From the UHGV virus genome UHGV-0038492: a stretch of 64,000 bases of DNA. The stretch is one strand, 5' to 3'. Below are positions 11,143 through 63,452 of the stretch, piece by piece. A program made the translations under genes and the position numbers. Source of the DNA: a virus. Positions within the stretch are counted from its first letter, which is position 1; each line of letters starts with the position of its first letter. The notes below the pieces were generated by a model. It saw only the letters and a program-made list of their open reading frames with translations, had not been told where the DNA came from and ran no database searches.

Positions 11143-11781
11143 ATGTCTTTTGTAATTGATTTCGACGTTGGCCACAGACAGAACTTACTTAATCTCGTTA
11201 GTTATTGTAACAGTGACAGTGTACGGAAAAAGCTTTCGGCTGAAAAGGTAGACGTTACGCTCGTCGGTGCCCCAACACCGGAAGGACGCTATAAGGTAAA
11301 GTTAACGAACCGTAACGACATAAACGATGCGGTACTGATTACCTACACAAAGCTTCAACTGAACGACTTCCTTGAGATTCCTGCCAAGTATCTGGATTGG
11401 TTTGATTTCGAAAACGGTCAACCTAAGAACTACGATACGTGGGCAGCTTCCGCTAAAGTCGCTGTAGAGAAAATGTGCCAAGACCGAGGTATGGTGATAT
11501 CTCGCGCTTGGGACACCGGTTCACAGTGTCACATTGAGTTTGACGAGTCTATCGAACGGTATGTGGTTGTCTACGAGTGCGACTCTTTTATTTATAGTGC
11601 GAGAAACCGATTCATCTTACCTCTACACTTAGGGCAGGTGATCAACGACACGACATTAGACGGTCTTGATTACAATAACGAACTGAACAAGAAACCATTG
11701 GCGGATTTGGACGGTGAGTTAGAAGTGTGGATGGGTCAGGCGTTGGTTGAGACAGTCGTCTTAAGCGGCCTGGAAGTATAA
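11143..11781 (+). CDS. hypothetical protein
   Basis: ATG at 11143 with GGAG upstream; the track start at 11119 is GTG. Confidence 0.55.
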   Translation: MSFVIDFDVGHRQNLLNLVSYCNSDSVRKKLSAEKVDVTLVGAPTPEGRYKVKLTNRNDINDAVLITYTKLQLNDFLEIPAKYLDWFDFENGQPKNYDTWAASAKVAVEKMCQDRGMVISRAWDTGSQCHIEFDESIERYVVVYECDSFIYSARNRFILPLHLGQVINDTTLDGLDYNNELNKKPLADLDGELEVWMGQALVETVVLSGLEV

Positions 11782-11793
11782 TAGTAACGGCGG

Positions 11794-11834
11794 GTAGAGA
11801 GAGCTTTCGGGCTCTCTCTACTTTTCTTTTTTTT
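11794..11834 (+). terminator. intrinsic terminator
   Basis: hairpin gtagagagagc-tttc-gggctctctctac plus T-run. Confidence 0.65.
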
Positions 11835-11864
11835 CCATTATCGACGGTCTTTATGGAGGTGACC

Positions 11865-12419
11865 ATGAAAGACTATAGAATTGCAATCATCGGGTCTCGA
11901 GAAACACCGGAAGACGTTATGCAGGAAATGTTAGACACGTTACGGGAAGGGTTTCGAATCTTACGAAAGAAAGGCTACACGATTACCACCCGTTCTGGCG
12001 GGTGTTATAAAGGCCCAGACCAGCTTCAGTTTATGATAGCACGTACCGAGGACGTTAAGAGCGTTTGTTATCTGCCGGATGAAAAGAAAATGTGGTTAGG
12101 GAAAATACACCCTAAGGTAGAGTTTCGTTATATCCCACAAGACGTTCAGTACCGAGCGATAGTTGCTTCACTTCACCCAAATCCAGATAAGCTCTCACCG
12201 ATTGCCTGGGCGCTACACGGCCGTAATCTGAATATCATCGCAGGTGACTGCTTAGACGAACCGGTAGACGCAGTCTATTACTTTAGCGACCACGACAAAC
12301 ACGGAAACGCAAAAGGTGGTACTGCGATGGGTGTAAAATACGCGAAGTCAATCGACGTTCCTTGTTACTACCATACCGTCGATCGGGATAAGTGGTTGGA
12401 AAGTCTTCGTTTATTATGA
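11865..12419 (+). CDS. SLOG/DprA-like Rossmann-fold protein (tentative)
   Basis: IAIIGSRE and TTRSGGCYKGPD resemble DprA/Smf-LOG family motifs; ATG at 11865 preceded by GGAGGTG. Confidence 0.35.
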   Translation: MKDYRIAIIGSRETPEDVMQEMLDTLREGFRILRKKGYTITTRSGGCYKGPDQLQFMIARTEDVKSVCYLPDEKKMWLGKIHPKVEFRYIPQDVQYRAIVASLHPNPDKLSPIAWALHGRNLNIIAGDCLDEPVDAVYYFSDHDKHGNAKGGTAMGVKYAKSIDVPCYYHTVDRDKWLESLRLL

Positions 12420-50747: not shown

Positions 50748-51278
50748 ATGGCCGCTACTAACCAGATGATGTTGGTCGCGCTTTATAATGCTGCTAACAC
50801 TGAGCTACCGCATCAGATTACAGATAAAGAAGTGTCCTTTGGTTTGCCTGCTGCGCTGGAAGGCGAAGGTAAGAATACCAAAGTTACCATGACCGCACTA
50901 CCGGGTTCTGAGAATTTCAAAGGCGAAATCGAACTGCATTACGATCGTCTGGAGCCAGGTGTTGTAGGACGGATTGAACTAACTGACGATCTGTCTCGCT
51001 GGGTTCAAGAAAATGAACTCCGTGCTTGGTTACAGTATTACATCAACAAAGTAAAACCTGACGACGCTATCGCACCAGGCGACGTTGTGTACAACACCGA
51101 AGACCAGAAAGACGAACATGAAAACGTCACTCTGCGTACCGTGACGTGCACCGTTACTGAAAAGAACCTCCGTTATAAACCAGGTGTAATGGCAACTTTC
51201 GTAATTACACCGAAGGTTGTCGATAATCGTATTGACCTGGCCACCACCAACGGTGAGTTGGACGGCTTTACTGCTTAA
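50748..51278 (+). CDS. member of the six-gene paralog family
   Basis: GKNTKVTMTALPGSENFKGEIELHYDRL; C-terminal NGELDGFTA. Confidence 0.55.
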   Translation: MAATNQMMLVALYNAANTELPHQITDKEVSFGLPAALEGEGKNTKVTMTALPGSENFKGEIELHYDRLEPGVVGRIELTDDLSRWVQENELRAWLQYYINKVKPDDAIAPGDVVYNTEDQKDEHENVTLRTVTCTVTEKNLRYKPGVMATFVITPKVVDNRIDLATTNGELDGFTA

Positions 51279-51315: not shown

Positions 51316-51352
51316 TACCTACCTCCGTAAAGGAGGTAGGTATTTTTTTTTG
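51316..51352. terminator. bidirectional terminator
   Basis: hairpin tacctacctcc-gtaa-aggaggtaggta flanked by an A-run and a T-run. Confidence 0.65.
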
Positions 51353-51359
51353 CCGCTAA

Positions 51360-52031
51360 TTACAGCCCTTGCTCTAATGCAAACGCTTTAATTGAATCGT
51401 AATCACGGGCTTCGGCCCAAGCTCTGACTTCTTTTTTCTGTTCCGTCATTGCCTGATGCAGTTGCTGGTCGCGTTGCACAATAGCACCCAGCAGTGTTTT
51501 GCACTGCTCTAACGTAAACGGTTCGATACGGGTGTTGTTGGCCGTTAACCAATACGCTGGCGCGGTTTCTGACTGAATATAACGACTCAGTGCTACCTGT
51601 GACTTCTCATCTGCCTGGAAAGTGAAATCACCCACTTGAATCTCGGCATACCGCGCATCCTGATAACGGAATTCCAATGCGCTTAGGATTTTCTGAACAT
51701 CGGTAAAGATATACCGCACAGTGGAGCGTAAACCCGTACGAATCTCTTCCAGGTCAATTCCCAACGTGTCGTTAACAAAGTCTTTCGCTTTCTGTAACGT
51801 AAATCGTGCTTCGATTTCAGACATGTCGTAGTTACGCATTTGTTCCAATGCTTCACGATCGGACATCCCATCAATCAATTTATAGTGCAGTAACGCACAA
51901 AAACCCGTACGACCATGATCTTCGCTACCGATTTTTTCCATATAGTTACCATGGCGGTCAATCGGTAAATCGTGCTCAAAATAACGACGACGGATTTCTT
52001 CTTTCGTTAAGCCTTCACCAGTAGCAGACAT
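51360..52031 (-). CDS. hypothetical protein, last gene of the radical-SAM cluster operon
   Basis: 223-codon ORF co-oriented with the cluster. Confidence 0.55.
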   Translation of the reverse strand: MSATGEGLTKEEIRRRYFEHDLPIDRHGNYMEKIGSEDHGRTGFCALLHYKLIDGMSDREALEQMRNYDMSEIEARFTLQKAKDFVNDTLGIDLEEIRTGLRSTVRYIFTDVQKILSALEFRYQDARYAEIQVGDFTFQADEKSQVALSRYIQSETAPAYWLTANNTRIEPFTLEQCKTLLGAIVQRDQQLHQAMTEQKKEVRAWAEARDYDSIKAFALEQGL

Positions 52032-52579
52032 TCATCGTCTCCTTTAATCAATCCTAATTCGATTAACAGTTCAAAATCGATATGACGGAATCTTGTATCA
52101 AAATCCGATTCCCAATCGATGCGGATACCCTGGCACTCTTCTGATGTTAGCTCGGGAAAAATTACGGTATTAAATTTCTCACGCTCATCGTAAAACCCAT
52201 CAATCGGTGAGTTCGGGTTACGCGTTGCGAAAATAGTAATACCAGGGAAAGATAATGCTAACACAGTGATAGATTCTGCGCTGGGCTCACTTAAAGAGCG
52301 GCGTAGAAACGCAATTTTGTGGCGTGGGAAGTCCAATACGCGTTCTTCAAACCCTGGATTACGTTTTTCGATTTCCGCTACCGACAGGTCAGTAAGTTCG
52401 GTGCAATACATTGGGATGATTACAGTCACGCCGTGGCGAATCAGTAAACGTTTTACGTCATCGGTAAAATCTTCGCCGTTAATCATCACGTAACAACCGA
52501 ACAGCTTACTGTTTTCCAGAAACTTATCCAGAAGTCGAATTCTACGCTTCGTAATATTGTTGATCAGAATTGGTTTCAT
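52007..52579 (-). CDS. hypothetical protein in the radical-SAM cluster
   Basis: 190-codon ORF; AAGAGAAG upstream of ATG; start overlaps the upstream gene. Confidence 0.5.
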   Translation of the reverse strand: MKPILINNITKRRIRLLDKFLENSKLFGCYVMINGEDFTDDVKRLLIRHGVTVIIPMYCTELTDLSVAEIEKRNPGFEERVLDFPRHKIAFLRRSLSEPSAESITVLALSFPGITIFATRNPNSPIDGFYDEREKFNTVIFPELTSEECQGIRIDWESDFDTRFRHIDFELLIELGLIKGDDECLLLVKA

Positions 52580-53864
52580 CTTTGGCTTCTCTTAATAATT
52601 TTTCCTTTTGGGCGCGTTCACGAACACAGCGTGGGCAATAACACATACTCGTGTCGTGGAACGCTTTTGCTGACGTCGTACCCATCTTCTGTTTCCAGTA
52701 TTCCGCCACCATCAGTTTCGCTGTCGTCCACCCGCACTGACGTCGCTCAGCGTGATACGCTTTACGGTCTTCCAGTGTCCCTTCACCGTTTTCGTAAGAA
52801 GCCGCAGCGCAGCTACCACAAGCGTGTTTCATCGGACAACCTAAGCACGTCTCTGGATAGTTGGTATATTGTGTTTGAATCTCTTCTAACAATTTACCGT
52901 TGTCCAGGCTGACGAATTCCCGACCTACCAACTCAAATACCGCAGAACGTGATGTTACGGTTGACATAAAGCGATTGCAACCGAAGATCTTACGGTCAAA
53001 ACCTAAACACGTCATGTGTGTTAATGTCCCACAGAACGGACGTAAACGTTCTGGGTTCAACCGCACCGTGTCATTATAAAGTAATTGATCACGCCAGTTC
53101 GGTTCCCAAATCGTATCGAAATCCAACCCTTCTGGGATGATGTGCGATAAGATATTACGTGGGTTGGTGTGTAATCCTTTCTCGACCCAATAATCAATCA
53201 CATCCATCATCTGCAATGCAATTGAAGTAGCCATCCCACGTGGCATAATGTCTTCGAAGGTTACGTTGCCGGAGATAGTTCCGCCACCAGTAATATCAAT
53301 TAATGACTTCATTCCGGCAGCATAGTACGGTAACGTTTCTAACGTAAAGGTCGCCTTTACGCCAAGCTCTGCAATGCCAACCTCTTTTAAGTAGTTATAG
53401 CCTCGTACTGCGGCTTCGTAAGAACCCTGGCGCGTCGTTGTAAAGATACGATAACGGTCATGGGACTCAGGTAAGCCGTCAATTGAAACCCCAACCGAAA
53501 GTTTGTCTTTCCAACGCTCTACGATCTCACGGTTCAACGGGCGATCTAACAACGTCCCGTTTGTGGAAATACTAAACATAAACGGCCGATTATGTTCTTT
53601 ACACAACTGCTCGGCGGTTTCAAATGCAGCCAGCAGCAACTTAGGCTGCATGAACGGTTCACCACCGATAATGTCAATAATAACTTCAACATTCGGTTCG
53701 TTTTTATCGCGTTCAAAACAGGCGTGCAAGAAATCAACAATATCTGCCGCTTTGTTGTTACGCGGGTACTTACGTTCGTAACAATATTCGCAGTCCAGGT
53801 TACACGAAAGGTTCGTTACAATCTGATACGTTAGCTGCTTAGGGAATTCATTTACCTGACTCAT
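52542..53864 (-). CDS. radical SAM enzyme with SPASM-type C-terminal Cys-rich domain (anSME/peptide-maturase-like)
   Basis: CNLDCEYC (CxxxCxxC) at residues 21-28, GGEP SAM motif, C-terminal cysteines in CGTLTHMTC...GC and CLGCPMKHACGSC; GAGGGG upstream of ATG. Confidence 0.8.
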   Translation of the reverse strand: MSQVNEFPKQLTYQIVTNLSCNLDCEYCYERKYPRNNKAADIVDFLHACFERDKNEPNVEVIIDIIGGEPFMQPKLLLAAFETAEQLCKEHNRPFMFSISTNGTLLDRPLNREIVERWKDKLSVGVSIDGLPESHDRYRIFTTTRQGSYEAAVRGYNYLKEVGIAELGVKATFTLETLPYYAAGMKSLIDITGGGTISGNVTFEDIMPRGMATSIALQMMDVIDYWVEKGLHTNPRNILSHIIPEGLDFDTIWEPNWRDQLLYNDTVRLNPERLRPFCGTLTHMTCLGFDRKIFGCNRFMSTVTSRSAVFELVGREFVSLDNGKLLEEIQTQYTNYPETCLGCPMKHACGSCAAASYENGEGTLEDRKAYHAERRQCGWTTAKLMVAEYWKQKMGTTSAKAFHDTSMCYCPRCVRERAQKEKLLREAKDETNSDQQYYEA

Positions 53865-54771
53865 TTGCCGCCCCTCTATTACGACCTGCCATCACTACGC
53901 GACGAATATATTCGTACGCCTCTACACCGATAGAGAAGGCCAGTTGGTTACACCCGGATTCCAGTACGTTAGGTGCGTTCTGGAGCTGGTGCTCACCACC
54001 GTCTGCATTAATCCAGAGACTTTCGCTGCAAACGTTACACCCTTCTTCAAACACTTTACTTACCGTAAAACCACATTCACGACTGTTTACTACATTCAGT
54101 CGTTCAATGTTGTCCTGAACCCGATAGTAGCCGTAAATAAAGTTCATGACGTGGTCAGGTGATAAAGGCTTTGGCATTTTCGCATCTAAGAGTAACGTCA
54201 TTGCTCGGAAACCGTAATGGTAAATCGCGCTGTGCAGCTGAATAATATCTTCATGCCAACGTTTATCCCCCAAACGGTCCCGTGTCAAGACACCCCAAGT
54301 CTGGACATTATCCAGCTCGTAGATCGTTTCCAGTGCTTCGTAACAGCCTTCGTCAATAAAGCGCATAAATGGACGCTCAGACGACTTAAACCCATCGATG
54401 CTAACGTAGACATTGTCAAACTGTTTTAGCAACGGGAGATGCGATTTACGCATCTTTAAGCCATTGGTATACAACTGGTGTTTGAGTTCTGGACGAATCA
54501 CTTTTAATTCGTCAACAAACGCCTCAATTTTACGGGTTGCCAATAGTGGCTCACCACCCGTCCACTGAATTTCGGTAATGGTTGGATTAGCTTCCAGCGC
54601 TTCCAAAATTCGCTCACGTTGAAACTCTCGCGGAGAATCTTCACGATTCATGTAATAGGCTCCACCGCAGAAGCTACAATCCAGGTTACACTTGGACGTA
54701 GCGACTACGGACAATACGGTGGGTTTATCGTATAAACGATTCGATAACCTTGGTTCTGCATTGGTTGTCAT
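53848..54771 (-). CDS. radical SAM enzyme (paralog, shorter Cys-containing C-terminus)
   Basis: CNLDCSFC at residues 28-35, TGGEPLL motif, C-terminal CGF...CNVC. Confidence 0.75.
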   Translation of the reverse strand: MTTNAEPRLSNRLYDKPTVLSVVATSKCNLDCSFCGGAYYMNREDSPREFQRERILEALEANPTITEIQWTGGEPLLATRKIEAFVDELKVIRPELKHQLYTNGLKMRKSHLPLLKQFDNVYVSIDGFKSSERPFMRFIDEGCYEALETIYELDNVQTWGVLTRDRLGDKRWHEDIIQLHSAIYHYGFRAMTLLLDAKMPKPLSPDHVMNFIYGYYRVQDNIERLNVVNSRECGFTVSKVFEEGCNVCSESLWINADGGEHQLQNAPNVLESGCNQLAFSIGVEAYEYIRRVVMAGRNRGAANESGK

Positions 54772-54792
54772 TGCAGGTGACTCCGGTCGTTT

Positions 54793-55680
54793 TTAAATAT
54801 AATCAATGGCGAACAAAGGATCGTCGTCTACGTTAGCACCAGGGGTTAACAAGAATGGAGAGTTATACGCTTCCAAAATACGGTTAAGGTCTTTATAACG
54901 GACATTTAAACGTTCTAAATCCGCTAACGTTACGTTACGGTCCAACACCGCCGACACTGCTGCTTTCTCTTCGTCAGTTAACGTGACTTTCGTCATTAAG
55001 AAACTAACGAGTTTTGCCAGATCCGCTTCTGTTGACGGATGCTCGCCGATACGCGTTTGAATCAAATGCTGCATCCATGGTTTACGGATGCGTTTTGTGA
55101 TCTCATGTTCATCCGTTAGGGCAACCCACACGGAACGTTCACGATCCCACACGAACTTATAGCTATACGCCATTAAATCCGCTAAACAATTAATCCCTAA
55201 GGCTTCGTACCCTTCAATTTCAATATACGATTCCGTATCGAAATAGTTCTTCGTTTCTGGTGTTACCAGGGTAAAGAAATACGGGAACGAGCCCAAGTAA
55301 TCTGGTGACCACCAACGACGGGCAACCGGTTTTGCACCCATTTCTTCAAACGGGGTAAAGAACAATTCCATATCCACGGAGTTATTCAAAATCCCATCAC
55401 TAAAGAAATATTTACCTGCAACCAATTTACCACGCAACTCAGAGTCACCGGTAAATACCACTACACTTTCTGCCGTCAGATCACGAATCTTAAACGTATT
55501 TTCTACACGATAGTTTTTACGATCGGTAAAGAAACGTCCGCGCACTTTAGGCCATTCGCCTGGCAATTGCGTCAGCAGACGAACTTCATCTGCTAAGTGT
55601 GCACGTACGGAATCAGGGGAAGAAATGTGAAGTGGATGATTGAAAATCGTTTTGTACGCTAAATGTAAATCATTCTTCAT
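54793..55680 (-). CDS. hypothetical protein in the radical-SAM cluster (possible accessory/partner protein)
   Basis: ATG at 55680 after GGAG; the track start at 55692 is TTG. Confidence 0.55.
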   Translation of the reverse strand: MKNDLHLAYKTIFNHPLHISSPDSVRAHLADEVRLLTQLPGEWPKVRGRFFTDRKNYRVENTFKIRDLTAESVVVFTGDSELRGKLVAGKYFFSDGILNNSVDMELFFTPFEEMGAKPVARRWWSPDYLGSFPYFFTLVTPETKNYFDTESYIEIEGYEALGINCLADLMAYSYKFVWDRERSVWVALTDEHEITKRIRKPWMQHLIQTRIGEHPSTEADLAKLVSFLMTKVTLTDEEKAAVSAVLDRNVTLADLERLNVRYKDLNRILEAYNSPFLLTPGANVDDDPLFAIDYI

Positions 55681-55947
55681 TGATTGCTCCAACTATTTTA
55701 CGGTCAAACGGACGTTCAGGGTATAGAACCCACCCCGCCATTGTCTGCCGGTAACTTGAAACTCAGCAGTAAACCCATTCGATTTACTCGGTTGCTGGTT
55801 AATCGCCATACTACCGCCGGAATTCTTAAAACCTCTAAAGAGATAGAAGCAGAAGTCGCATTACCGATTGAGTCTATCTTAAAACTAGCCGCATCTGTAA
55901 AATTGACAGTAATACCATCACCCATCGCAACTCGGGGAAAGGCTTAC

Positions 55948-56154
55948 TTACCGCCCCCCTGCTCCCTTACTACAGCTACCGCTGCACGACCAGCTACATC
56001 CACCGTTACAGTTGTAGTGGCTTAAAGGTAAACCGGCAAGGTTATTGGTTGAAGACACGGTACCCTGGTTTGCAATATAGTTGTTTGCGTTAGCGGTCGT
56101 AATATACCCTTCCGCTGTTACTAAACGATCACGAAGGTTCTTAAGGCTAATCAC
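55948..56154 (-). CDS. Cys-rich peptide, short third copy (leader plus 4-Cys core)
   Basis: GTG start 2 nt after the upstream stop with GGGAGG SD; leader ISLKNLRDRL... and core CNGGCSWSCSGSC. Confidence 0.5.
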   Translation of the reverse strand: MISLKNLRDRLVTAEGYITTANANNYIANQGTVSSTNNLAGLPLSHYNCNGGCSWSCSGSCSKGAGGR

Positions 56155-56156
56155 AA

Positions 56157-56555
56157 TTACCTCCCAGAACACCCACCGGAACAAGAACCTGAACAGCCTG
56201 AAGAACAGTTCCCTGTACACGCGTTAGAACAGCTCCCCGTGCAACTTCCTGAACACCCACCGGAGCAGGTATTCGAACATCCGCTACAGCCCGCGCTACA
56301 ACCTGATACGCAGTTTGCAGAACACGAGGAACCACAACCACCGGATGCGTTTCCTGTGCAGCCACCAGAACAACTCGAACACGTCCAGCTACAACTACCT
56401 CCGCAGTCGTAGTGATTGCGGGCCTGTCCTCCGAATAAGTCTGCGTTGTTTGTCGCTTTCCCGCGAATATAGTTTTGTACTGCACCCGTATTCTTCAATG
56501 CAGTGCTGTCAATGTTATTTAACCGCGCTTGTAGCGCAGGTAATCCAATTGCCAT
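56157..56555 (-). CDS. Cys/Gly/Ser-rich peptide precursor (about 50-aa Cys-free leader, about 80-aa core with 20 Cys)
   Basis: AAGAGGTG upstream of ATG; core of repeated C-x2/3 units such as CSGGCSGSCTGSCSNAC. Confidence 0.65.
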   Translation of the reverse strand: MAIGLPALQARLNNIDSTALKNTGAVQNYIRGKATNNADLFGGQARNHYDCGGSCSWTCSSCSGGCTGNASGGCGSSCSANCVSGCSAGCSGCSNTCSGGCSGSCTGSCSNACTGNCSSGCSGSCSGGCSGR

Positions 56556-56565
56556 TTTTCACCTC

Positions 56566-56961
56566 TTAGGTTGGGCCAGAACAGCCGCCAGAGCAGGCAC
56601 CAGAACAACCCGTAGAACAACGGCCTGAGCAAGCACCCCCACAGGTTCCGCTACAACCTGAACACCCACCTGAACACGTTGAGCTACATCCAGTACATTG
56701 GTTACCGCACGCAGAGGAGCAGCTGCCTACACACACAGACGTACAAGTACCCGAACAGCTCGTACAACCATGCGTACAGCCGTTTGAGCACGTCCAGCTA
56801 CAACTACCTCCGCAGTCTAACCGGTTTGGCGTCCAACCCGAAAATGTGTCGGCTGCATTATGTGCTTTCGACGCAACTTGCGGATCAACACGTGGGCCAG
56901 TTGCCATTTGGTTCTCTACGTTGGTGATTCGGTCACGTACGTTTTTAACACTGATCGCCAT
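56566..56961 (-). CDS. Cys/Gly/Ser-rich peptide precursor (leader plus core with 21 Cys)
   Basis: ATG at 56961 after TAAGGA; leader VKNVRDRITNVENQ...; core begins CGGSCSWTCS. Confidence 0.65.
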   Translation of the reverse strand: MAISVKNVRDRITNVENQMATGPRVDPQVASKAHNAADTFSGWTPNRLDCGGSCSWTCSNGCTHGCTSCSGTCTSVCVGSCSSACGNQCTGCSSTCSGGCSGCSGTCGGACSGRCSTGCSGACSGGCSGPT

Positions 56962-56982
56962 CACGTATCCTTAAAATAAAAA

Positions 56983-57020
56983 AGAATGGAGGACTACGTC
57001 CATAAACATAGTTCCTCCTG
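56983..57020 (-). terminator. hairpin plus T-run between the 399-aa fibre-like gene and the first precursor gene
   Basis: on the minus strand, arms ggaggaac/gtcctcc are followed by ttcttttttatttt. Confidence 0.4.
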
Positions 57021-57028
57021 TAATTAAA

Positions 57029-58228
57029 TTATTTCGTACCCGCTTCCGCCTGTACGTCATCACGAGACGTCAGGTTAGCGTTAACGTGTACTGCGGCCTG
57101 AACCACGCCACCGTATTTCTTGTGGAGATAACCGGTGTGTGGGTTATCTGCCGCAATGTGGTTTTGTAGGTTTTGGTTCGCTTGACTGATTGCGTTCGTG
57201 TTATTGTTAACCTGCTGTTTAAGCGCATCCAGGCTTTGTTGTACCTGATTGATTTTCTGATCGGTTTCTTGACCCTGTTGCTCTAACGCGTCAACACGCT
57301 GAATAACCTGATTCAGTTTTGTGTTTAAATCGTTGATGTTCTTTTGCAGCTGTAACACTAACGAGTTCAGGTTCGCTAACGCTAAGGCCATTTTCTGGTA
57401 GTTTTGAGCAACCACGTTAAGTTGGTCGTTCCACGCTTCCAGAGAGTTGACAACAGCGTCAATACGTTTACCTAAAGCTTCGTCCGCTTTCTTCAGTGCA
57501 TTGATTTCCGTAATCGTTGCATCGATAGCAGACTGAACGTCACGAATAAGCGCACGGATTTCAGTTTCTCTTAACCCGTTAACCTGGTGAATATCAAGAT
57601 GGTGAACGTTACCCGTTGCGTTGATGTGTGCATTTAAAGCATCTAAGAAGTCATTTTTCAGACTTTCTAAAATCGCTTTAATGTTCTCTAACTGTACCGC
57701 GTCACCAGAACTGATCGCATCTTTAATCCCCGCCAATACGGTGATGATATATTCAAAACCGTAGATGTCACCCACGTCTTTATACGTCGGTGCAGACGGG
57801 AATGTATCCGGTACGTTACGTAAGTCTTTAAACGCAATCGTACGGTTATCGAGGTTTAACTCAGCAATCGCCTGTTCGATAGCCACGATGTTCGCAGACT
57901 GTGGACCACCAACGACCTGCGCAGATACCGTAATATCTGTTGGAATCGCTGTGTTAGTGACCACCACCGCCATAACAATCTCGCGGTTTTTAGTCAGCTT
58001 TTCATAAGTCGGGTGTGCAAAAATCAACTCATAATCGGTACCACGTTCGTAGGTTGCTTCCGGTCGGTTAGCAACGCGTAAACGGAACGTGTCCGCAAAG
58101 AACGGACCATCAGGAAAAGCAAAAGCACGGTTTACTTTACCTGTACCTAACGTAATCTGACGCTCCACAGCGTTAGACGTTAGCGAGCCCGTTAAATCTA
58201 AAGGATATTGATAAACAATGGAGGCCAT
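57029..58228 (-). CDS. fibrous coiled-coil virion protein (fibre/whisker-like)
   Basis: ATG at 58228 after AAGGAGAG; long heptad-like Q/N/L-rich C-terminal half; N-terminal PDGPFF motif shared with the 1727-aa protein. Confidence 0.65.
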   Translation of the reverse strand: MASIVYQYPLDLTGSLTSNAVERQITLGTGKVNRAFAFPDGPFFADTFRLRVANRPEATYERGTDYELIFAHPTYEKLTKNREIVMAVVVTNTAIPTDITVSAQVVGGPQSANIVAIEQAIAELNLDNRTIAFKDLRNVPDTFPSAPTYKDVGDIYGFEYIITVLAGIKDAISSGDAVQLENIKAILESLKNDFLDALNAHINATGNVHHLDIHQVNGLRETEIRALIRDVQSAIDATITEINALKKADEALGKRIDAVVNSLEAWNDQLNVVAQNYQKMALALANLNSLVLQLQKNINDLNTKLNQVIQRVDALEQQGQETDQKINQVQQSLDALKQQVNNNTNAISQANQNLQNHIAADNPHTGYLHKKYGGVVQAAVHVNANLTSRDDVQAEAGTK

Positions 58229-58268
58229 GGCCACTCTCCTTTATTCGAGACGTCCTTGTCCCGAGTCA

Positions 58269-61200
58269 TTAAGATGTAAACATAAGATTGAACTGGAGTT
58301 TGTCGATATCGCGAGTTTCTGCTGGATTCACACCATCGTACGCGGTCGCTACGTAAACCGTTAGCGTGCCGTTAGCGTAAGACGATTTCACCGGTGGGTT
58401 AGTTCCAGTCTGACCATCTCGCACAATGAGTGTAGGTTCACTTGGGAGATTATCAAACTGACCCTTGACCGCTTTATACACCAAACCAGATTGCGCAGAC
58501 AGTTCAGTGTCCGTAAAGACAAAGAACGGTGTGTCGATATCAGCCTGTTTAATCGTGGTACCGGTCTCGACGTCAATCAACTGTACCGCCCCAAACTTCG
58601 TACGATAACTTTCATACTCGTTCTTCGGAATAACGAACGTGACGTGAACGCGAACCTCCTCGGCAGGTTTAAACCCAGCGTGCTCTTTTTCCAGGTACTG
58701 GTTGGCGGTTAACGTGACGTCCTGCTCTTTCATCGTACCACCGGCCTGGTTTAATGCATAGCGAGCTTCAACAATACCGGTTGGCGCAGCAAGTCGCAGT
58801 TTCAGAGCACGATTTGCCGTTCCTGGATTACCTGGCACCTGAACGCGCAAACTCAATGCTAAGTAAACATTCGTTCCGGTAGTCGGTTTCGTATACGCAC
58901 CAATCCATTTCATGTTCGCAGACGCTGCCTGCGTGTTCTCAGAAGCAGTGGCTGTCGCAATGTTAGCAGCTACCGCTTTCTGCCAGAATTGGTCAGCGCA
59001 GTTCTCATACGCTACCCTGGCCACGCTCTTATAACCCGAATACGTTTCCTGAATTGGTAACTTAGGACGCGTCGTAATACCAGACAATGAACCCCATTTT
59101 TGACCGTCAACATACCCTTCGCCCTTCGACGCAGACGCCGTAGGCGCTTTAACGGGTTTGTTAACCAGTGTTAATAGAGGACCCGTCTTTCTGTCAAACG
59201 CTGCTGCAACATCATGTTGGTCGATAATTGCTGCGTGGTCTTCCAGTTCTTTCACACGACCCAAACGTTTTACTTTGTCGATGTTGATACCAGTAATACG
59301 GCTGGAATCGGTGGTTACTGACCCGACGAACAGTCTTGTTGAAGTGTCAGCTAACTGCTCCAAACCGATACGGTATTGCGCAGTAGAACCTGACACCTCA
59401 GCGTGCACGTAGAACGTCTGGTTAGCGTGGTTAGACGGGAATTCGCTGCTTAAATCCACAGACCACGTTGGGAGTGTGTAACTGCTGCTACCGAAGTCTA
59501 ACTTGACTTCTTCTGTCAAATACAGAATCCAGCCTTCTGCTGTCTCCACACCGGCAATAATAACAGCCTGACCTCCGGTTGAGAACCTCGTGTCGTTAAC
59601 GAACTCTGCGGCTGTATACGCGTTACCTGAACAGAAAACACGGTCAGCTTTAGAGTAAATCAACGCCATCTTGTCCCAATTACCCGCACCCATATAGCAC
59701 CCAGATTCTGGGTTATGTGCAGGGGCCATCTGTCGTAACTGTGACTTACCAGGAACGCGAGACCAACCTGAACCTGGGTCGTAGGTATACTTCGCGGCGT
59801 AACCTAGTGCATTTAAGTCCCCGATATTTCGGATAGTTAACGTATAAGGTAGCCAAATACCGAAGTTTACACCGTCGGCAGAAGCAAAAATTGGCTGACC
59901 GACACGTCGTGTTTTATTACCCGCTTCTTCCCTCAGAGACTGATAACTTAAACCATAATCGAGGTCTAAGAACCAGTCCACCAACTTAAAGGTGGCTGAG
60001 TTGAAACGTAAGTAGCCGTTCTCTTTAGATGGACTCACCATGAAGTAATAGATGTCAAGAATTCGACGTCCGTTACTTGAGGTTTTCATGCACGAAACTT
60101 GCAACAAGTCAAATTCGCACACGGTGTTGATACCCAACATCCAAAGAGCAAACAGTGCATTACCGGTTTGATGTGCAGCACTGATGCGCTCATTCGCGTA
60201 ACCATTTGCTTGACCAGATGGCGCACCGTCAACGATCATCCGAATCATTTTCTGACGATCGGCTTCTTCTAGCGTTAAGCGTTCGGAAGACAATGCGAAA
60301 TTACCGTAGATGTTACGATACGGGAACGTTTCTGCTTTGGTCAAATACCAACCGTTTAGCTGCCCGTGACGCTCCTCAGGAGTCATGCACGCAGCCATAC
60401 AGCTAAGCTGCTCGTAGAGCGTTGGATCGACTTCACGACGGTTGTTGTTCGGACCGTATCCGCTATAACCCGGAACATCGTAAGGTTTGTTCGGATCAAC
60501 TTCTACTTCGATGGTGTAACGGTTACGTGGGTTAGACAACCACACTTTATTCGAACCGCCTATTCCGACAGGATGGGAAAGACCGATGGTGTAAATAGAA
60601 CCGCGACCTTTATCCCAGGTAAACGTTCCTTCGCCCGAGGTGTTGTTTGGGTTATCGTAACGCAGATAATCGAAAAGCTCTTTGCCTTGTGTACCCTTAA
60701 TAGAAACATTAGGCATTTGGTCCGCATCGTTAATCTGCCAGCAGGAAAGCATCATTCCTGTACCGTTAGGTTTTGCATACGTCGCGAAACAACGGTTGTT
60801 TGCCTGACCACCACCCCACTTACGACTGGTTTCTACAGTTGAACCATCCGCGAACGAGAGTGCAGTAGCATCAGCCTTGATGGGGAAGCGTTCGCGGCCT
60901 TCTAACGTAACCTTGCCCGTCAACGTATCGATTGTAAAACTTGTTGCCCATTGACGAAAGTTAATTTGTGAGCTGTCGGCCGCTGCAAACCACACAGTAG
61001 GCATATGGTTCACACGAATCACGCTTTCGCGTACCGCACACGCGTGGTTACATTCTGGCCCGTGAACAAAGTTGTGGCCAATTGTCCATTTAGCCCGTGC
61101 TTCCGGCGTCAAATACGTAAAGAATTGACCCGTCTGCGACTCTTCGGTTTTCTGGCCAATACGTAGGCAGAGGTTATCTCCGAATTGTCCCATTTCACCG

Positions 61201-63452
61201 GTTAGTGTTACACGTTCAAATTCTAACGTAGTGTTAGTAGACAAATCGTCTTTACGTAAGCGCCATGCTGCAACAGCGTAAGCAGAGTTATTTACCGTGG
61301 AGCGGAGAAGATAAACATAGTCCTCAACCAACACAACGTCATCGGCTTCTGGCCACGGATTCCAGGTTTGTTCTGTAGTACCGCTGGGGTTACCGTTACG
61401 GTACATAGGCATCGTGACACGACATACCACCGTGTGTTTAGTGTGGTCCATCGAACCATTAAACAGCACCAAATAACGATTATTGTCAGAACCCAGGCAA
61501 ATAATCGCTTCCTGACCACCGATCAATATCGCTTTTAGGGTCACTCCAGGATATTTACTCATCCCGGCAGGGTGATATTTCACTGAGGTCTGCTGCGGAT
61601 TTACAAACGCGTTTGAGGTGTTAATGTCCGCGTAGCCGTAATAAATGGCTTCTGTACCCGGCACGCCATTAGAACCGTTACGTAGCGAATAAACCTTACC
61701 CTGCTGATACCCAACAACCCCTTTCTGGTAAGACTGGTTTTTGGTATAGCCCGCGTAGTTACCTAACGCTGGGATAGGTAAGAAGTTCTTATTACCGAAC
61801 TTCGCACCGCCTACCGTCCATGCCGGTAAGATGGTATTCAGTTTATCAGAGACTTTCTTAATCTCTTTTGCGAACAACCACCCTTGACGTGACGTGACAG
61901 CTTTATCATTAGTGGTGTCAATTGCATCCCACAGCTGTAAGACACCGTCAACCGTTGCACTACCAATTGGGACGTTATCCAAGTCAGCAGTGGTGTGGGT
62001 GTGCGTTTTCAAACTCTTGTTTTTCAACACGTTCGTTAACGCTTTTGTCACAGGCTTAGCACTCGGTATGGTGTTATCCATCTTATCGATACCGAAATCG
62101 GTTTTCGTTAAGGTTAACACCATCTTGTCGCCCGTCTTAACAAACCCTTTACCGTTAACGGTATAGTCATCGTCAACGTACAGGTCCAAACGGTCTTTTA
62201 GTTCGGTTACGGCTTTCTGGGAGATGGCAGTACCTAACGCCGCAGACGTAGAGATGTTCGTAATCGAGAACAACCCATAAACTGATTCGGACGCTGTGGG
62301 AATATTCGCGTTTAACGTGACCGGGTTAGTCTGTTTTGCAGTACCGTACGGTTTTACGGTGTCTGACGCTTTGAAATACGCGTTTGCTTCAAGCAACGTT
62401 ACTGACGTCAGATACATGTTCACCATTTCTGGCGTGACCAGGTACACGGAGTTATAAACCGGTGCTAATACATCCTGTTCTGACCCCGAGTGAACCCAAA
62501 GCGTATTCAGACCCGCACTAAACTCCACCGCTAAACCTGATTCGTTATTGTCCTGGTCTGCTTTAATCACTAACGGTTGCGGTGAGGTAATTAACCACTT
62601 ATCACCACGAATACTGATGATGTGACCACCTGACGTTTTAAACGTTAATTCATTACCGTTCGTGGTACCCCATCGACCGTAAACAGTACCGAGGGCTTCA
62701 CCCATTAACTGATCAACGTCGGATTGCTCGATACCCGCTGAACCCATCAGCGTAGCCAATTCGTCAATCGTCAACCCAAATGCTTTTGTGGCGTCAACAG
62801 CGCGTCCTAATACGGGGAGAGCAGCAACGTCGTCAGTGGTATAGTGATGCGCGTTAGGGTTACGGTGATGCTGGTATAATTCTTCGTCGAAAACCTTTTT
62901 CCCGTTCTCGTAAATCAGGTTAGTGACTTCGCTAAACGCAGCATCCAACTCCGTAGAACGCTTAATGATTTTCTTGCGAATGTCTTCTAACGCCTTAACA
63001 ACCTCGTCCCTCAGAATCGCTTCTTCTAAGTTAGCAGGCGGGTCGATAGGCTGAATAACCGGCGCATACGCCATTAGTTCAGACCAGTCCACGTTACGTG
63101 GGTCTTTCAGGTCAGTACGAACTAAGAACTTCCCGATTTCAGATTGTGGTACACGGTATTGTCGTGCTACCCCTAAAATCTCATATTCGATTTCTGTTGC
63201 GGTAAGCAACATAAACCCGCCATAAATCTGATCTTGCTCAGCTTCGGCGAGTTCTTTAAAGTAATAGCCTAAATAGTAGTCCAACCCCTCAATCAGAGTA
63301 CGACGTCCGTTAGGCGCGGTATCGTCGGCTACTGTGAGTTTTAATCCGATACGATAAAAAGGTCCTTCAGGCGGAATGACCACGTTAAATCGGTTAGGGT
63401 ACGTCGCTGTGCTTAACGTACCGTTAAACTGCGCCGCGTCTTCTCTCGGCAT
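58269..63452 (-). CDS. very large structural protein (1727 aa), probably tail fibre/host-specificity protein
   Basis: AGGAG upstream of ATG; N-terminal PPEGPFY motif parallels the 399-aa protein. Confidence 0.7.
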   Translation of the reverse strand: MPREDAAQFNGTLSTATYPNRFNVVIPPEGPFYRIGLKLTVADDTAPNGRRTLIEGLDYYLGYYFKELAEAEQDQIYGGFMLLTATEIEYEILGVARQYRVPQSEIGKFLVRTDLKDPRNVDWSELMAYAPVIQPIDPPANLEEAILRDEVVKALEDIRKKIIKRSTELDAAFSEVTNLIYENGKKVFDEELYQHHRNPNAHHYTTDDVAALPVLGRAVDATKAFGLTIDELATLMGSAGIEQSDVDQLMGEALGTVYGRWGTTNGNELTFKTSGGHIISIRGDKWLITSPQPLVIKADQDNNESGLAVEFSAGLNTLWVHSGSEQDVLAPVYNSVYLVTPEMVNMYLTSVTLLEANAYFKASDTVKPYGTAKQTNPVTLNANIPTASESVYGLFSITNISTSAALGTAISQKAVTELKDRLDLYVDDDYTVNGKGFVKTGDKMVLTLTKTDFGIDKMDNTIPSAKPVTKALTNVLKNKSLKTHTHTTADLDNVPIGSATVDGVLQLWDAIDTTNDKAVTSRQGWLFAKEIKKVSDKLNTILPAWTVGGAKFGNKNFLPIPALGNYAGYTKNQSYQKGVVGYQQGKVYSLRNGSNGVPGTEAIYYGYADINTSNAFVNPQQTSVKYHPAGMSKYPGVTLKAILIGGQEAIICLGSDNNRYLVLFNGSMDHTKHTVVCRVTMPMYRNGNPSGTTEQTWNPWPEADDVVLVEDYVYLLRSTVNNSAYAVAAWRLRKDDLSTNTTLEFERVTLTGEMGQFGDNLCLRIGQKTEESQTGQFFTYLTPEARAKWTIGHNFVHGPECNHACAVRESVIRVNHMPTVWFAAADSSQINFRQWATSFTIDTLTGKVTLEGRERFPIKADATALSFADGSTVETSRKWGGGQANNRCFATYAKPNGTGMMLSCWQINDADQMPNVSIKGTQGKELFDYLRYDNPNNTSGEGTFTWDKGRGSIYTIGLSHPVGIGGSNKVWLSNPRNRYTIEVEVDPNKPYDVPGYSGYGPNNNRREVDPTLYEQLSCMAACMTPEERHGQLNGWYLTKAETFPYRNIYGNFALSSERLTLEEADRQKMIRMIVDGAPSGQANGYANERISAAHQTGNALFALWMLGINTVCEFDLLQVSCMKTSSNGRRILDIYYFMVSPSKENGYLRFNSATFKLVDWFLDLDYGLSYQSLREEAGNKTRRVGQPIFASADGVNFGIWLPYTLTIRNIGDLNALGYAAKYTYDPGSGWSRVPGKSQLRQMAPAHNPESGCYMGAGNWDKMALIYSKADRVFCSGNAYTAAEFVNDTRFSTGGQAVIIAGVETAEGWILYLTEEVKLDFGSSSYTLPTWSVDLSSEFPSNHANQTFYVHAEVSGSTAQYRIGLEQLADTSTRLFVGSVTTDSSRITGINIDKVKRLGRVKELEDHAAIIDQHDVAAAFDRKTGPLLTLVNKPVKAPTASASKGEGYVDGQKWGSLSGITTRPKLPIQETYSGYKSVARVAYENCADQFWQKAVAANIATATASENTQAASANMKWIGAYTKPTTGTNVYLALSLRVQVPGNPGTANRALKLRLAAPTGIVEARYALNQAGGTMKEQDVTLTANQYLEKEHAGFKPAEEVRVHVTFVIPKNEYESYRTKFGAVQLIDVETGTTIKQADIDTPFFVFTDTELSAQSGLVYKAVKGQFDNLPSEPTLIVRDGQTGTNPPVKSSYANGTLTVYVATAYDGVNPAETRDIDKLQFNLMFTS

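What the first reader, a model, noticed from the sequence alone, without database searches (positions are those of the whole stretch)
55948..56961. Three tandem peptide genes with a shared Cys-free leader and a periodic Cys/Gly/Ser core
Translated directly: each product starts with a ~45-50-residue leader lacking Cys, ending in a conserved junction (N/H)(R/H)(L/Y)(D/N)-C-(G/N)-G-(S/G)-C-S-W-(T/S)-C-S. The two long copies then carry ~80 residues of almost pure C-x2/3 units (20 and 21 cysteines; e.g. CSGGCSGSCTGSCSNACTGNCSSGCSGSC). The DNA of the two cores is not identical, so the pattern is maintained at protein level. Leader/core architecture with a conserved junction is what RiPP precursors look like; the 4-residue Cys periodicity would allow a ladder of regularly spaced crosslinks or a metal-binding array.
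Basis: seen in the sequence. Interest (0 to 1): 0.88.

Follow-up and report, generated by a model that had tools for sequence, protein, structure and literature searches.

The report
Cysteine-ladder mini tail fibres with maturases
Three small, usually mis-annotated genes in a giant phage encode stub-like tail-fibre proteins ending in about 20 evenly spaced cysteines, and the two radical-SAM enzymes next to them probably cross-link that array, which would make it an enzyme-cross-linked virus particle part.

Summary
Three tightly coupled minus-strand genes (pepA 56566-56961, pepB 56157-56555, pepC 55948-56154) encode proteins of 131, 132 and 68 aa. Each has a Cys-free N-terminal part of 48-50 residues and an invariant C-x-G-x-C-S-W junction; the cores hold 21, 20 and 4 Cys at 3-4 residue spacing. 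Comparison with nine related jumbo phages shows the Cys frame is coding and under purifying selection.

The RiPP reading is only partly right. The genes sit in a tail-fibre operon directly upstream of an accessory protein (no solved fold relative), a twitch-like radical SAM enzyme, and a SPASM radical SAM enzyme. That last enzyme's best family matches are the CXXX-repeat maturases (TIGR04115), PapB and CteB. However, the "leader" is homologous to the end of tail-fibre shafts. In lambda-like, P2-like, T7-like and other jumbo phages the same junction and Cys array form the C-terminus of 200-570-aa fibre proteins, beside the same enzyme set.

Best reading: these are minimal fibre proteins whose Cys array is cross-linked, probably by thioethers, and stays on the virion. 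The chemistry and the virion location are inferred, not shown. It is a new variant of a known but uncharacterised system.

The parts
56566..56961 (-). pepA: 131-aa Cys-repeat mini-fibre protein. It has a 49-aa N-terminal part, the junction CGGSCSWTC, and 21 Cys in an 82-aa core.
   Evidence: ORF, RBS and composition. phrog_6085, E 1.7e-40. Orthologues with exactly 21 Cys in all nine related phages. Purifying selection in this frame.
56157..56555 (-). pepB: 132-aa paralogue. It has a 50-aa N-terminal part containing ...KATNNADLFGGQARNHYD, the same junction, and 20 Cys.
   Evidence: phrog_6085, E 1.6e-39. TIGR04114 Cys-rich repeat, 20.7 bits against a cutoff of 20. Orthologues carry 20-23 Cys. 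SPN3US gp166 is annotated in the wrong frame over this gene.
55948..56154 (-). pepC: 68-aa short paralogue with a GTG start, translationally coupled to pepB. It has the same N-terminal part and junction but only 4 Cys.
   Evidence: phrog_6085, E 2.3e-24, covering profile positions 2-66. In four phages it keeps only the C-x-G-x-C-S-W motif, with 2-3 Cys.
54793..55680 (-). gp165-like accessory protein (295 aa from the ATG), phrog_8030. It is conserved in every fibre-type cassette.
53848..54771 (-). rSAM2: 307-aa radical SAM enzyme with C28-x3-C32-x2-C35 and three conserved C-terminal Cys (C245, C248, C274). This is a twitch-like pattern suggesting one auxiliary cluster.
   Evidence: PF04055, E 6e-14. 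Cys positions. Conservation across 10 cassettes. Only generic PDB relatives.
52542..53864 (-). rSAM1: 440-aa radical SAM/SPASM enzyme, a divergent member of the CXXX-repeat/PapB/CteB peptide-maturase clade, without an RRE domain.
   Evidence: TIGR04115, 116.9 bits, E 1.4e-33, near full length. PapB model, 115.9 bits. C21/C25/C28 plus seven invariant and one nearly invariant C-terminal Cys. CteB 5WGG, E 6e-36, aligned from CteB residue 104.
52007..52579 (-). 190-aa protein of unknown function (phrog_7988), syntenic in all related jumbo phages. Its membership of the system is uncertain.
51360..52031 (-). 223-aa DUF4376 protein with weak matches to tail/tail-fibre PHROGs. It is the last gene of the minus-strand block.
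   Evidence: PF14301, E 1.3e-11. phrog_8169, plus tail fibre phrog_1807, E 2e-4.
57029..58234 (-). gp167-like 401-aa coiled-coil fibre protein, immediately upstream of pepA. It is annotated 'virion structural protein' or 'viral fiber protein' in relatives.
58269..63452 (-). gp168-like 1727-aa baseplate/tail-fibre protein at the head of the same strand block.
   Evidence: SPN3US gp168 is a tail protein similar to phiKZ gp131 and is absent from tailless mutants (PMC5105663; PMC5694885).
56972..57018 (-). Conserved stem-loop followed by a U-run, between the gp167-like stop and the pepA start.
   Evidence: RNA fold -20.5 kcal/mol, z = -3.45. Present at the same place with different stem sequences in all ten phages.
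51316..51342 (.). Bidirectional terminator-like hairpin (11 bp stem) that ends the minus-strand block.

Best explanation
pepA, pepB and pepC are real, co-translated genes for minimal tail-fibre-type proteins. Each has a short helical N-terminal stub, a tail-fibre shaft motif (NAxxLxG...Y), an invariant C-x-G-x-C-S-W junction, and an array of C-[S/T/G]-[G/S]-x units (in pepA and pepB). They are the substrates of the three proteins encoded just downstream: a gp165-like accessory protein, a twitch-like rSAM and a SPASM rSAM.

In the infected cell, the SPASM enzyme most likely converts the Cys thiols into a ladder of closely spaced thioether cross-links. This inference rests on its homology to CXXX-repeat maturases, PapB and CteB. 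The second rSAM either adds a second type of link or handles a subset of sites. The gp165-like protein presents the substrate, replacing the missing RRE domain.

The product keeps its N-terminal part and is incorporated into the baseplate/fibre apparatus as a thin, reduction- and protease-resistant rod.

Shown here: the genes are real; the module is homologous to fibre C-termini; linkage to the enzyme set is strict; and the enzyme family is assigned. Inferred: that modification happens, that it is a thioether, and that the product is in the virion.
For: The genes are coding and constrained.

The order fibre, fibre, pepA, pepB, pepC, gp165-like, rSAM2, rSAM1 is conserved in five jumbo-phage genera.

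rSAM1's best matches are TIGR04115 and PapB and CteB, with a full SPASM Cys set. A score series links it to bona fide TIGR04115 members on viral contigs: 455, 308, 157 and 117 bits.

Cys-run ORFs lie beside 77 of 80 viral relatives of rSAM1, against 2 of 62 generic rSAM loci.

The same junction plus Cys array is the C-terminus of fibre proteins in a lambda-like Deferribacter prophage (302 aa), a lambda-like metagenomic phage (258 aa), a 213-kb jumbo phage (568 aa), a T7-like contig (206 aa) and another contig (292 aa). A P2-like Campylobacter prophage fibre (384 aa, PF12571) also ends in a Cys array, without the C-S-W junction. Each of these is followed by a gp165-like homologue and two or three rSAM genes.

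phrog_6085 matches those fibre C-termini.

The closest relative of the window has an extra rSAM2 paralogue inserted between pepA and pepB.

The cluster has no protease or exporter.

The neighbouring gp168-170 are virion baseplate/fibre proteins.
Against: There is no direct evidence of modification, of thioether chemistry, or of presence in virions. The SPN3US virion proteomes could not have found these products, because the ORFs were unannotated or called in the wrong frame.

rSAM1 scores far below the TIGR04115 and PapB cutoffs (117 against 350 and 340 bits).

The cores lack the Asp/Glu acceptors that PapB uses, so the acceptor residue is unknown.

The third protein of the described CXXX cassette (TIGR04116) is absent.

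The AF2 monomer model of pepB is not confident (pLDDT 46), so nothing structural supports a rod.

The role of rSAM2 is unassigned.
Confidence: 0.55

Rival explanations
1. Classical RiPP natural product. The 50-residue N-terminal part is a true leader. After rSAM modification it is cut off, and the Cys-rich core is released at lysis as a free bioactive or signalling peptide.
For: The small size and leader/core appearance. The adjacent SPASM maturase of a RiPP clade. The wider CXXX family does include short 65-70-aa precursors with about 25-residue leaders in a Ruminococcaceae genome (L102).
Against: The 'leader' is homologous to fibre-shaft ends, and the same module ends long fibre proteins. 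The cluster has no protease, transporter or immunity gene. rSAM1 has no RRE domain. The genes are embedded in, and translationally coupled within, the fibre operon. The N-terminal parts are strongly conserved as three distinct paralogue types across genera.
Confidence: 0.15
2. Unmodified Cys array. The repeats act as they are, as a metal-binding column or as a module that becomes disulfide-cross-linked after lysis, stiffening or gluing fibres. The neighbouring rSAM enzymes act on something else.
For: The Cys/Gly/Ser composition resembles disulfide-rich structural modules; the only (insignificant) PDB profile matches are Cys-rich modules. Metal-stabilised fibre tips are known in other phages (own knowledge: T4 gp37 and gp12).
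Against: It does not explain why 77 of 80 viral relatives of rSAM1 have a Cys-repeat ORF next to them. It does not explain why the gp165-like/rSAM pair follows the Cys-array fibre in every sampled background, or why an rSAM2 paralogue sits between pepA and pepB in L025. rSAM1 belongs to a peptide-modifying clade.
Confidence: 0.15
3. Non-virion helper. The three proteins are assembly factors (a scaffold or chaperone for the large fibres gp167-170) or a redox/Fe-S buffer for the rSAM enzymes, and are not part of the finished particle.
For: They were never reported in virion proteomes. They are small, and they lie near genes resembling tail-assembly proteins (the DUF4376 protein).
Against: The proteomes could not have detected them, since the ORFs were missing from the annotation. 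In other phages the module is covalently part of the fibre protein itself.
Confidence: 0.1
4. Compositional artefact. The Cys-rich frame is a by-product of a gene in another frame or on the other strand (as GenBank annotates for SPN3US gp166).
For: Alternative frames are open over 50-110 codons, and several database records annotate them.
Against: The six-frame test gives pN/pS 0.32 with no stops in the Cys frame only. Third-position changes dominate. The start, RBS, stop and Cys count are conserved in ten phages. Annotation of the other frames differs from record to record.
Confidence: 0.01

Closest known systems
CXXX-repeat radical SAM target system (NCBIfam/TIGRFAMs TIGR04114 repeat, TIGR04115 maturase, TIGR04116 partner; Pfam PF27846). 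It is defined computationally, and I found no experimental study in the searchable library.
   Same: The substrate has tandem C-x-x-x units, and pepB reaches the TIGR04114 cutoff. The adjacent SPASM rSAM has TIGR04115 as its best family, matched over nearly the full model. A graded score series connects it to true members found on viral contigs.
   Different: rSAM1 scores 117 bits against a cutoff of 350, so it is not a member at the curated level. There is no TIGR04116 protein. Instead there is a second, twitch-like rSAM and a gp165-like protein. The carriers have a fibre-type N-terminal part and the C-x-G-x-C-S-W junction, which is absent from all but two of the more distant viral carriers. 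There are three tandem paralogues.
PapB/freyrasin (ranthipeptide; Cys-to-Asp beta-thioethers in repeated C-X3-D motifs). The chemistry is cited from my own knowledge and from the abstract of PMC12373016.
   Same: It is the closest experimentally characterised enzyme family by NCBIfam (E 2.2e-33). It installs many small, in-line rings on a substrate with a 4-residue Cys period.
   Different: The score of 116 bits is well below the cutoff of 340. The window's cores contain no Asp or Glu acceptors. The substrate is a fibre-like protein rather than a short peptide.
CteB/SCIFF (thermocellin) thioether synthase, PDB 5WGG/5WHY
   Same: It is the closest solved structure to the rSAM1 family (E 6e-36), with a SPASM domain holding two auxiliary clusters.
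   Different: CteB carries an N-terminal RRE domain. The alignment starts at CteB residue 104, so rSAM1 lacks it. SCIFF peptides have 6 Cys in 45 residues and no repeat array.
QhpD/QhpC (quinohemoprotein amine dehydrogenase gamma-subunit maturation)
   Same: A SPASM rSAM (TIGR03906 is among rSAM1's hits, E 6.5e-17) installs several Cys thioethers in a protein that is kept whole as a structural subunit (own knowledge). This is the behaviour proposed here.
   Different: It is only a distant homologue. Its substrate is an enzyme subunit with Asp/Glu acceptors, not a repeat array or a virion protein.
His-Xaa-Ser repeat system (HxsA with paired rSAMs HxsB/HxsC)
   Same: Two different rSAM enzymes sit next to a short-period repeat substrate. 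rSAM1 hits HxsB (E 1.7e-21) and rSAM2 hits HxsC (E 4.5e-10).
   Different: The repeat is different (H-x-S), all scores are far below the cutoffs, and there is no phage or fibre context.
Metal-stabilised phage fibre tips (T4 gp37 HxH iron column; own knowledge)
   Same: A short-period repeat of a metal- or bond-forming residue at the distal end of a tail fibre, giving a thin rigid needle.
   Different: This is an analogy only. There is no sequence relationship, no enzyme is involved, and it uses His rather than Cys.

Membership tests
CXXX-repeat radical SAM target system (TIGR04114/04115/04116) | Substrate with tandem Cys-Xaa-Xaa-Xaa repeats that matches TIGR04114 | tested here: met
   84% of units are 4-mers and 15% are 3-mers. 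pepB scores 20.7 bits against a cutoff of 20. pepA scores 14.5 bits, below the cutoff.
CXXX-repeat radical SAM target system (TIGR04114/04115/04116) | Adjacent maturase scoring above the TIGR04115 curated cutoff (350 bits) | tested here: not met
   116.9 bits, although it is the best-scoring family and matches over model positions 3-345 of 359. True members on viral contigs score 455 bits.
CXXX-repeat radical SAM target system (TIGR04114/04115/04116) | Third cassette protein TIGR04116 | tested here: not met
   No NCBIfam hit at E<0.1 for the gp165-like, 190-aa or 223-aa proteins.
Radical SAM/SPASM peptide maturase | CxxxCxxC cluster motif plus a C-terminal 7-8 Cys SPASM motif | tested here: met
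   C21/C25/C28. C278, C296, C340, C343, C349, C352 and C377 are invariant and C286 is nearly invariant in 16 homologues. PF04055.
RiPP precursor in the strict sense (leader-guided, leader removed) | RRE/PqqD-like leader-binding domain in the maturase or a partner | tested here: not met
   [not shown]
RiPP precursor in the strict sense (leader-guided, leader removed) | Leader protease and/or exporter in the cluster | tested here: not met
   None among the genes from 51360 to 63452 by Pfam, NCBIfam or PHROGs. A host protease cannot be excluded.
RiPP precursor in the strict sense (leader-guided, leader removed) | Demonstrated post-translational modification of the core | not testable with these tools
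   Needs mass spectrometry.
Ranthipeptide/sactipeptide (thioether-linked) | Maturase at equivalog level to a characterised thioether synthase (PapB, CteB/ScfB and similar) | tested here: not met
   PapB 115.9 bits against a cutoff of 340. SCIFF maturase 58 bits against 425. The homology itself is clear (CteB E 6e-36).
Ranthipeptide/sactipeptide (thioether-linked) | Known acceptor pattern (for example C-X3-D for PapB) | tested here: not met
   The cores of pepA and pepB contain no Asp or Glu.
Ranthipeptide/sactipeptide (thioether-linked) | S-C(alpha/beta/gamma) thioether bonds present | not testable with these tools
   Needs MS/MS or NMR.
Phage tail-fibre protein | Encoded within the tail-fibre/baseplate gene module | tested here: met
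   Directly downstream of the gp167-like and gp168-like fibre genes on the same strand. gp168 is a tail protein.
Phage tail-fibre protein | Sequence homology to recognised fibre proteins | tested here: met
   phrog_6085 (the peptides' family) matches the C-termini of the L011, L014 and L026 fibres (E 4e-12 to 9e-6). Those proteins carry fibre repeats and tail-fibre PHROG hits. The L012 carrier has PF12571. The junction is shared in 18 loci. The homology covers only about the last 30 residues of the N-terminal part plus the junction.
Phage tail-fibre protein | Physical presence in the virion | not testable with these tools
   Published SPN3US proteomes used an annotation that lacks these ORFs.
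Phage tail-fibre protein | Trimeric fibrous structure | tested here: inconclusive
   The AF2 monomer has pLDDT 46, with only two N-terminal helices predicted. No multimer tool was available.

The most novel reading that the evidence does not exclude
Diverse tailed phages (jumbo myoviruses, P2-like, lambda-like and T7-like) carry a dedicated two-rSAM maturation cassette. It installs a ladder of radical-generated cross-links in the Cys-repeat tip of tail-fibre proteins. This would be an enzymatically cross-linked, RiPP-style virion structural protein. It would also give a biological role to the long-uncharacterised CXXX-repeat rSAM family and to the 'orphan' rSAM genes of SPN3US-like phages. In the SPN3US group the fibre has been pared down to three stub paralogues, which may assemble as a hetero-oligomeric whisker.
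Probability: 0.45. Interest if true: 0.85.

Novelty: new variant of a known kind. Interest (0 to 1): 0.72.

Why it matters
If the reading is right, radical SAM peptide-maturation chemistry is used by phages to harden a part of the virus particle. That chemistry is otherwise known from antibiotics and cofactor biogenesis. I found no report linking rSAM enzymes to tail-fibre proteins in the searchable literature.

It would explain the purpose of the conserved rSAM gene pair in SPN3US-like jumbo phages. It would give the CXXX-repeat rSAM family a concrete, testable substrate and context. It would also define a new kind of fibre tip that could matter for host range and for particle stability in reducing or protease-rich habitats such as the gut.

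There is a practical point too. pepA and pepB are missing or mis-framed in most deposited genomes, and only pepC-type proteins appear in a collection of 5.8 billion predicted proteins. Proteomic and comparative studies have therefore been blind to them. SPN3US has an amber-mutant genetic system and published virion proteomes, so the hypothesis is directly testable.

Tried and rejected
- **Artefact of another frame or strand:** rejected by codon-position counts and a six-frame pN/pS test.
- **Recent DNA tandem duplication as the source of the periodicity:** rejected. The cores are 64% identical at nucleotide level, codon use is diverse, and there is only one weak 12-bp repeat.
- **Pfam scan of the peptides:** no hit.
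- **Profile search of the peptides against PDB sequences:** only insignificant matches to Cys-rich modules.
- **AF2 model of pepB:** pLDDT 46, unusable, so no fold search was run on it.
- **Literature:** eight searches (SPN3US with radical SAM; CXXX repeat; jumbo phage with radical SAM and cysteine-rich; SPN3US gp167/gp168; phage with ranthipeptide; tail fiber with radical SAM and thioether; TIGR04115; SPASM with tail fiber) found nothing describing this. The paper I believe defined the rSAM target-peptide families (Haft and Basu 2011, from memory) is not held in the library.
- **SPN3US proteome papers and supplements:** no mention of gp163-167.
- **Bacterial genome scan with the rSAM1 profile:** I used it only as a negative control.
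- **Search of the large protein collection with the leader-plus-junction profile:** returned only pepC-type proteins.
- **Rapid evolution of the distal core between the window and its closest relative:** not interpretable as positive selection, because synonymous sites are saturated across the whole module.
Full report
**1. What is there**

The finding lies on the minus strand. Three ORFs follow one another almost without spacers:

| Gene | Coordinates | Start | Length | Cys |
|---|---|---|---|---|
| pepA | 56566-56961 | ATG | 131 aa | 21 |
| pepB | 56157-56555 | ATG | 132 aa | 20 |
| pepC | 55948-56154 | GTG | 68 aa | 4 |

Each gene has a Shine-Dalgarno sequence. pepC's lies within the last codons of pepB, so the three are probably translationally coupled.

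The products have Cys-free N-terminal parts of 49, 50 and 48 residues. The junctions are NRLD-CGGSCSWTCS, NHYD-CGGSCSWTCS and SHYN-CNGGCSWSCS. In the two long copies the cores are 82 residues with Cys every 3 or 4 positions, apart from one gap of 8. The repeat unit is C-[S 66%, G 16%, T 11%]-[G 58%, S 22%]-[G/S/T]. No shuffle of the pepA core out of 200,000 reproduced the spacing.

**2. Are they genes?**

The window is a diverged relative of the SPN3US-like jumbo phages. I extracted the same region from nine phages in five genera: Seoulvirus, Erskinevirus, Machinavirus, Wellingtonvirus and Derbicusvirus.
- All nine have pepA with exactly 21 Cys, pepB with 20-23 Cys, and pepC with 2-4 Cys, in the same order and with conserved starts.
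- Between the window and these orthologues, nonsynonymous differences are about 0.2 per site. Synonymous sites are saturated at 0.7-0.9, and third codon positions change two to three times as often as the others. This holds in both the N-terminal part and the core.
- A six-frame comparison gives pN/pS 0.32 and no stop codons for the Cys frame. Four other frames give ratios above 1.3 with stops. The remaining antisense frame, which shares wobble positions with the Cys frame, gives 0.43 with 43 stop-containing codon pairs.
- The two cores are only 64% identical at DNA level and use all Ser and Gly codons. They contain almost no DNA tandem repeat. The periodicity is therefore kept at the protein level.

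Database annotation of this 1.1-kb stretch is chaotic. SPN3US gp166 is called in a Val/Ala-rich wrong frame over pepB, and pepA and pepC are not annotated there. Other records call opposite-strand ORFs. A search of 5.8 billion predicted proteins with the leader-plus-junction profile returned only pepC-type proteins. The three products do fall in one PHROG family of unknown function, phrog_6085.

**3. Surroundings**

The minus-strand block reads as follows:
1. 1727-aa gp168-like protein
2. 401-aa coiled-coil gp167-like fibre
3. pepA, pepB, pepC
4. gp165-like protein (phrog_8030)
5. rSAM2 (307 aa)
6. rSAM1 (440 aa)
7. 190-aa protein
8. 223-aa DUF4376 protein

The only strong terminator lies just after the last gene, at 51316-51342. 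In SPN3US, gp168-170 are virion baseplate/fibre proteins related to phiKZ gp131 and are absent from tailless particles (PMC5105663; PMC5694885).

*rSAM1.* It has the CxxxCxxC motif plus seven invariant and one nearly invariant C-terminal Cys, a full SPASM complement.
- Its best NCBIfam match is TIGR04115, 'radical SAM peptide maturase, CXXX-repeat target family' (E 1.4e-33, nearly full length).
- Next comes the PapB ranthipeptide maturase (E 2.2e-33). Both scores are far below the curated cutoffs.
- The closest solved structure is the thioether synthase CteB (E 6e-36). The alignment starts at CteB residue 104, after its RRE domain, so rSAM1 has no leader-binding domain.

*rSAM2.* It has the rSAM triad and three conserved C-terminal Cys, suggesting one auxiliary cluster. 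It has no specific family assignment.

**4. The decisive comparison**

Remote homologues of rSAM1 (33-40% identity) lie in prophage or phage tail modules, in each case next to a second rSAM and a homologue of the gp165-like protein (BLASTP E 3e-10 and 5e-10). In these loci the Cys array is not a small peptide. It is the C-terminus of the tail-fibre protein.

| Locus | Background | Carrier | C-terminal sequence |
|---|---|---|---|
| L011 | Deferribacter abyssi, lambda-like prophage | 302-aa fibre with HxHDxRYYTExE repeats | ...KATNADQLGGQAGSYYR-CSDCSWTCSSSC..., then about 100 residues of Cys units |
| L014 | lambda-like metagenomic phage | 258-aa fibre | ...ANASKLAGQTSGYYR-CSGCSWTC... |
| L012 | Campylobacter pinnipediorum, P2-like prophage | 384-aa fibre (PF12571) | ...GCNGCSGSCSGSCSSGC... 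(no C-S-W junction) |
| L026 | 213-kb jumbo-phage contig | 568-aa fibre | ...NAVTLGGQPPDFYT-CGGSCSWSC... |
| L176 | T7-like contig | 206-aa carrier | ...DYYR-CANGCSWTC... |
| L178 | other phage contig | 292-aa carrier | ...DYYR-CNNGCSWTC... |

L176 and L178 were found through the gp165-like family, which has only 84 clusters among 1.84 billion representatives. phrog_6085 matches these fibre C-termini. The junction motif occurs in 18 of the loci examined.

So the 'leader' of pepA, pepB and pepC is the last stretch of a fibre shaft, and the 'core' is a fibre-tip module.

**5. Relation to the known CXXX-repeat system**

A scan of IMG/VR with the rSAM1 profile gave 80 loci.
- 77 of them have a same-strand ORF with at least 6 consecutive closely spaced Cys, up to 63, near the rSAM.
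- By contrast, 2 of 62 generic rSAM loci from bacterial genomes had a Cys run of at least 10, and no other ORF in the window had a run of at least 6.
- TIGR04115 scores fall in a series from a true member (L035, 455 bits) through 308 and 157 bits to the window's 117 bits.
- The more distant, canonical-type carriers have a different N-terminal domain of about 110 aa, a single rSAM and a small 97-121-aa partner. They too sit immediately after tail-fibre genes. Among 19 non-redundant upstream neighbours, most of the matched PHROG families that carry a function name are tail-fibre or tail families.

The window therefore carries a divergent, fibre-embedded branch of this system. It is distinguished by the C-S-W junction, the second rSAM and the gp165-like protein. 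The TIGR04116 partner of the described cassette was not detected.

**6. Mechanism**

*Shown:* the genes are real; they are homologous to fibre tips; they are strictly linked to a three-protein enzyme set; and the SPASM enzyme belongs to a clade whose characterised members make Cys thioethers.

*Inferred:* the Cys array is cross-linked in the infected cell, most likely by thioethers. The acceptor residue is unknown, because the cores have no Asp or Glu. The gp165-like protein substitutes for the missing RRE. The product keeps its N-terminal part and joins the baseplate/fibre apparatus.

*Supporting details:*
- A close relative (L025) has an additional rSAM2 paralogue inserted between pepA and pepB.
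- The proximal half of each core is 98-100% conserved at the amino-acid level despite saturated synonymous change. The distal half varies but keeps its Cys register.
- A-type, B-type and C-type paralogues are each conserved across genera. The triplication is therefore old and the copies are not redundant.

Whether they form homo- or hetero-oligomers could not be tested. The AF2 monomer of pepB is not confident.

**7. Rivals**

- *Classical released RiPP.* It fits the small size and the enzyme family. It is contradicted by the fibre homology, the missing RRE, protease and exporter, and the operon context.
- *Unmodified metal-binding or disulfide module.* It leaves the enzyme linkage unexplained.
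- *Assembly-helper role.* It is hard to reconcile with the module being part of the fibre polypeptide in other phages.
- *Artefact.* It is excluded by the frame tests.

**8. Novelty and limits**

The repeat and maturase families exist in curated libraries (TIGR04114/04115, PF27846, phrog_6085). This is not a new category.

What I could not find described in the searchable literature:
- the link to tail fibres;
- the two-rSAM plus gp165-like variant;
- the trio of stub proteins in SPN3US-like phages;
- their systematic mis-annotation.

Nothing here demonstrates modification, chemistry or virion location. Those claims are testable with the mass spectrometry and genetics listed under next steps.

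Noticed in passing
window 56972-57018 (minus strand); same position in L001, L003-L010: A stable stem-loop followed by a U-run lies between the gp167-like fibre gene and pepA (-20.5 kcal/mol, z = -3.45). It is present in all ten related phages, with different stem sequences but kept pairing, and with a TATGG-like core in the loop. It could be a leaky terminator, an RNA stabiliser or a phage late-promoter element. The simple terminator scan did not call it.
   Followed up: partly
L001 (SPN3US JN641803) 11210-12239; L003-L010 about 3030-4180: GenBank and RefSeq records mis-annotate this stretch. SPN3US gp166 is a wrong-frame Val/Ala-rich ORF over pepB, and pepA and pepC are absent. Other records call opposite-strand or overlapping ORFs. 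A search of 5.8 billion predicted proteins found only pepC-type proteins.
   Followed up: yes
L025 3576-4487 (IMG/VR contig IMGVR_UViG_3300045988_078609, closest relative of the window): An extra 303-aa rSAM2-type paralogue is inserted between pepA and pepB. That phage therefore appears to carry three rSAM genes in the module.
   Followed up: partly
window 56961-57029 compared with L025 3093-3159: There is a sharp mosaic boundary between the window and its closest relative. The gp167-like fibre gene has dS 0.12 (98% aa identity). From pepA onward dS is above 1.2 or saturated, and the gp165-like protein is only 69% identical. The peptide/maturase module seems to be exchanged as a unit, with the breakpoint near the conserved hairpin.
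   Followed up: partly
L029-L092 (IMG/VR loci), e.g. L031 3716-8245, L035 4340-8242, L043 3875-8257: Canonical-type CXXX-repeat carriers (up to 63 Cys) with TIGR04115-class maturases sit directly downstream of tail-fibre genes on viral contigs. The computationally defined 'CXXX-repeat rSAM target' system may be largely a phage tail-module system.
   Followed up: partly
L093 1189-8738 (136-kb viral contig): A different Cys-repeat type occurs here: two tandem proteins of about 200 aa with CNYSCTCNCNYACTC-like units. They are flanked by five ORFs carrying the rSAM Cys motif. This is a distinct variant that I did not analyse.
   Followed up: no
[not shown]
   Followed up: partly
window 51316-51342: A strong bidirectional terminator-like hairpin (11-bp stem, T-run on the plus strand) lies at the convergence point between the minus-strand fibre/maturase block and the plus-strand genes that end at 51278.
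   Followed up: no
L027, L028 (279-kb viral contig), L061: Three viral loci encode a relative of rSAM1 (31% identity in L027 and L028) but have no Cys-run ORF within the fetched flanks. They are exceptions to the linkage, and L027 and L061 are short contigs.
   Followed up: partly
L177 103-741: In one metagenomic cassette a 2OG-Fe(II) oxygenase gene (PF13759) lies directly upstream of the gp165-like gene and the rSAM pair. The contig starts too close to show whether a carrier gene lies upstream.
   Followed up: no
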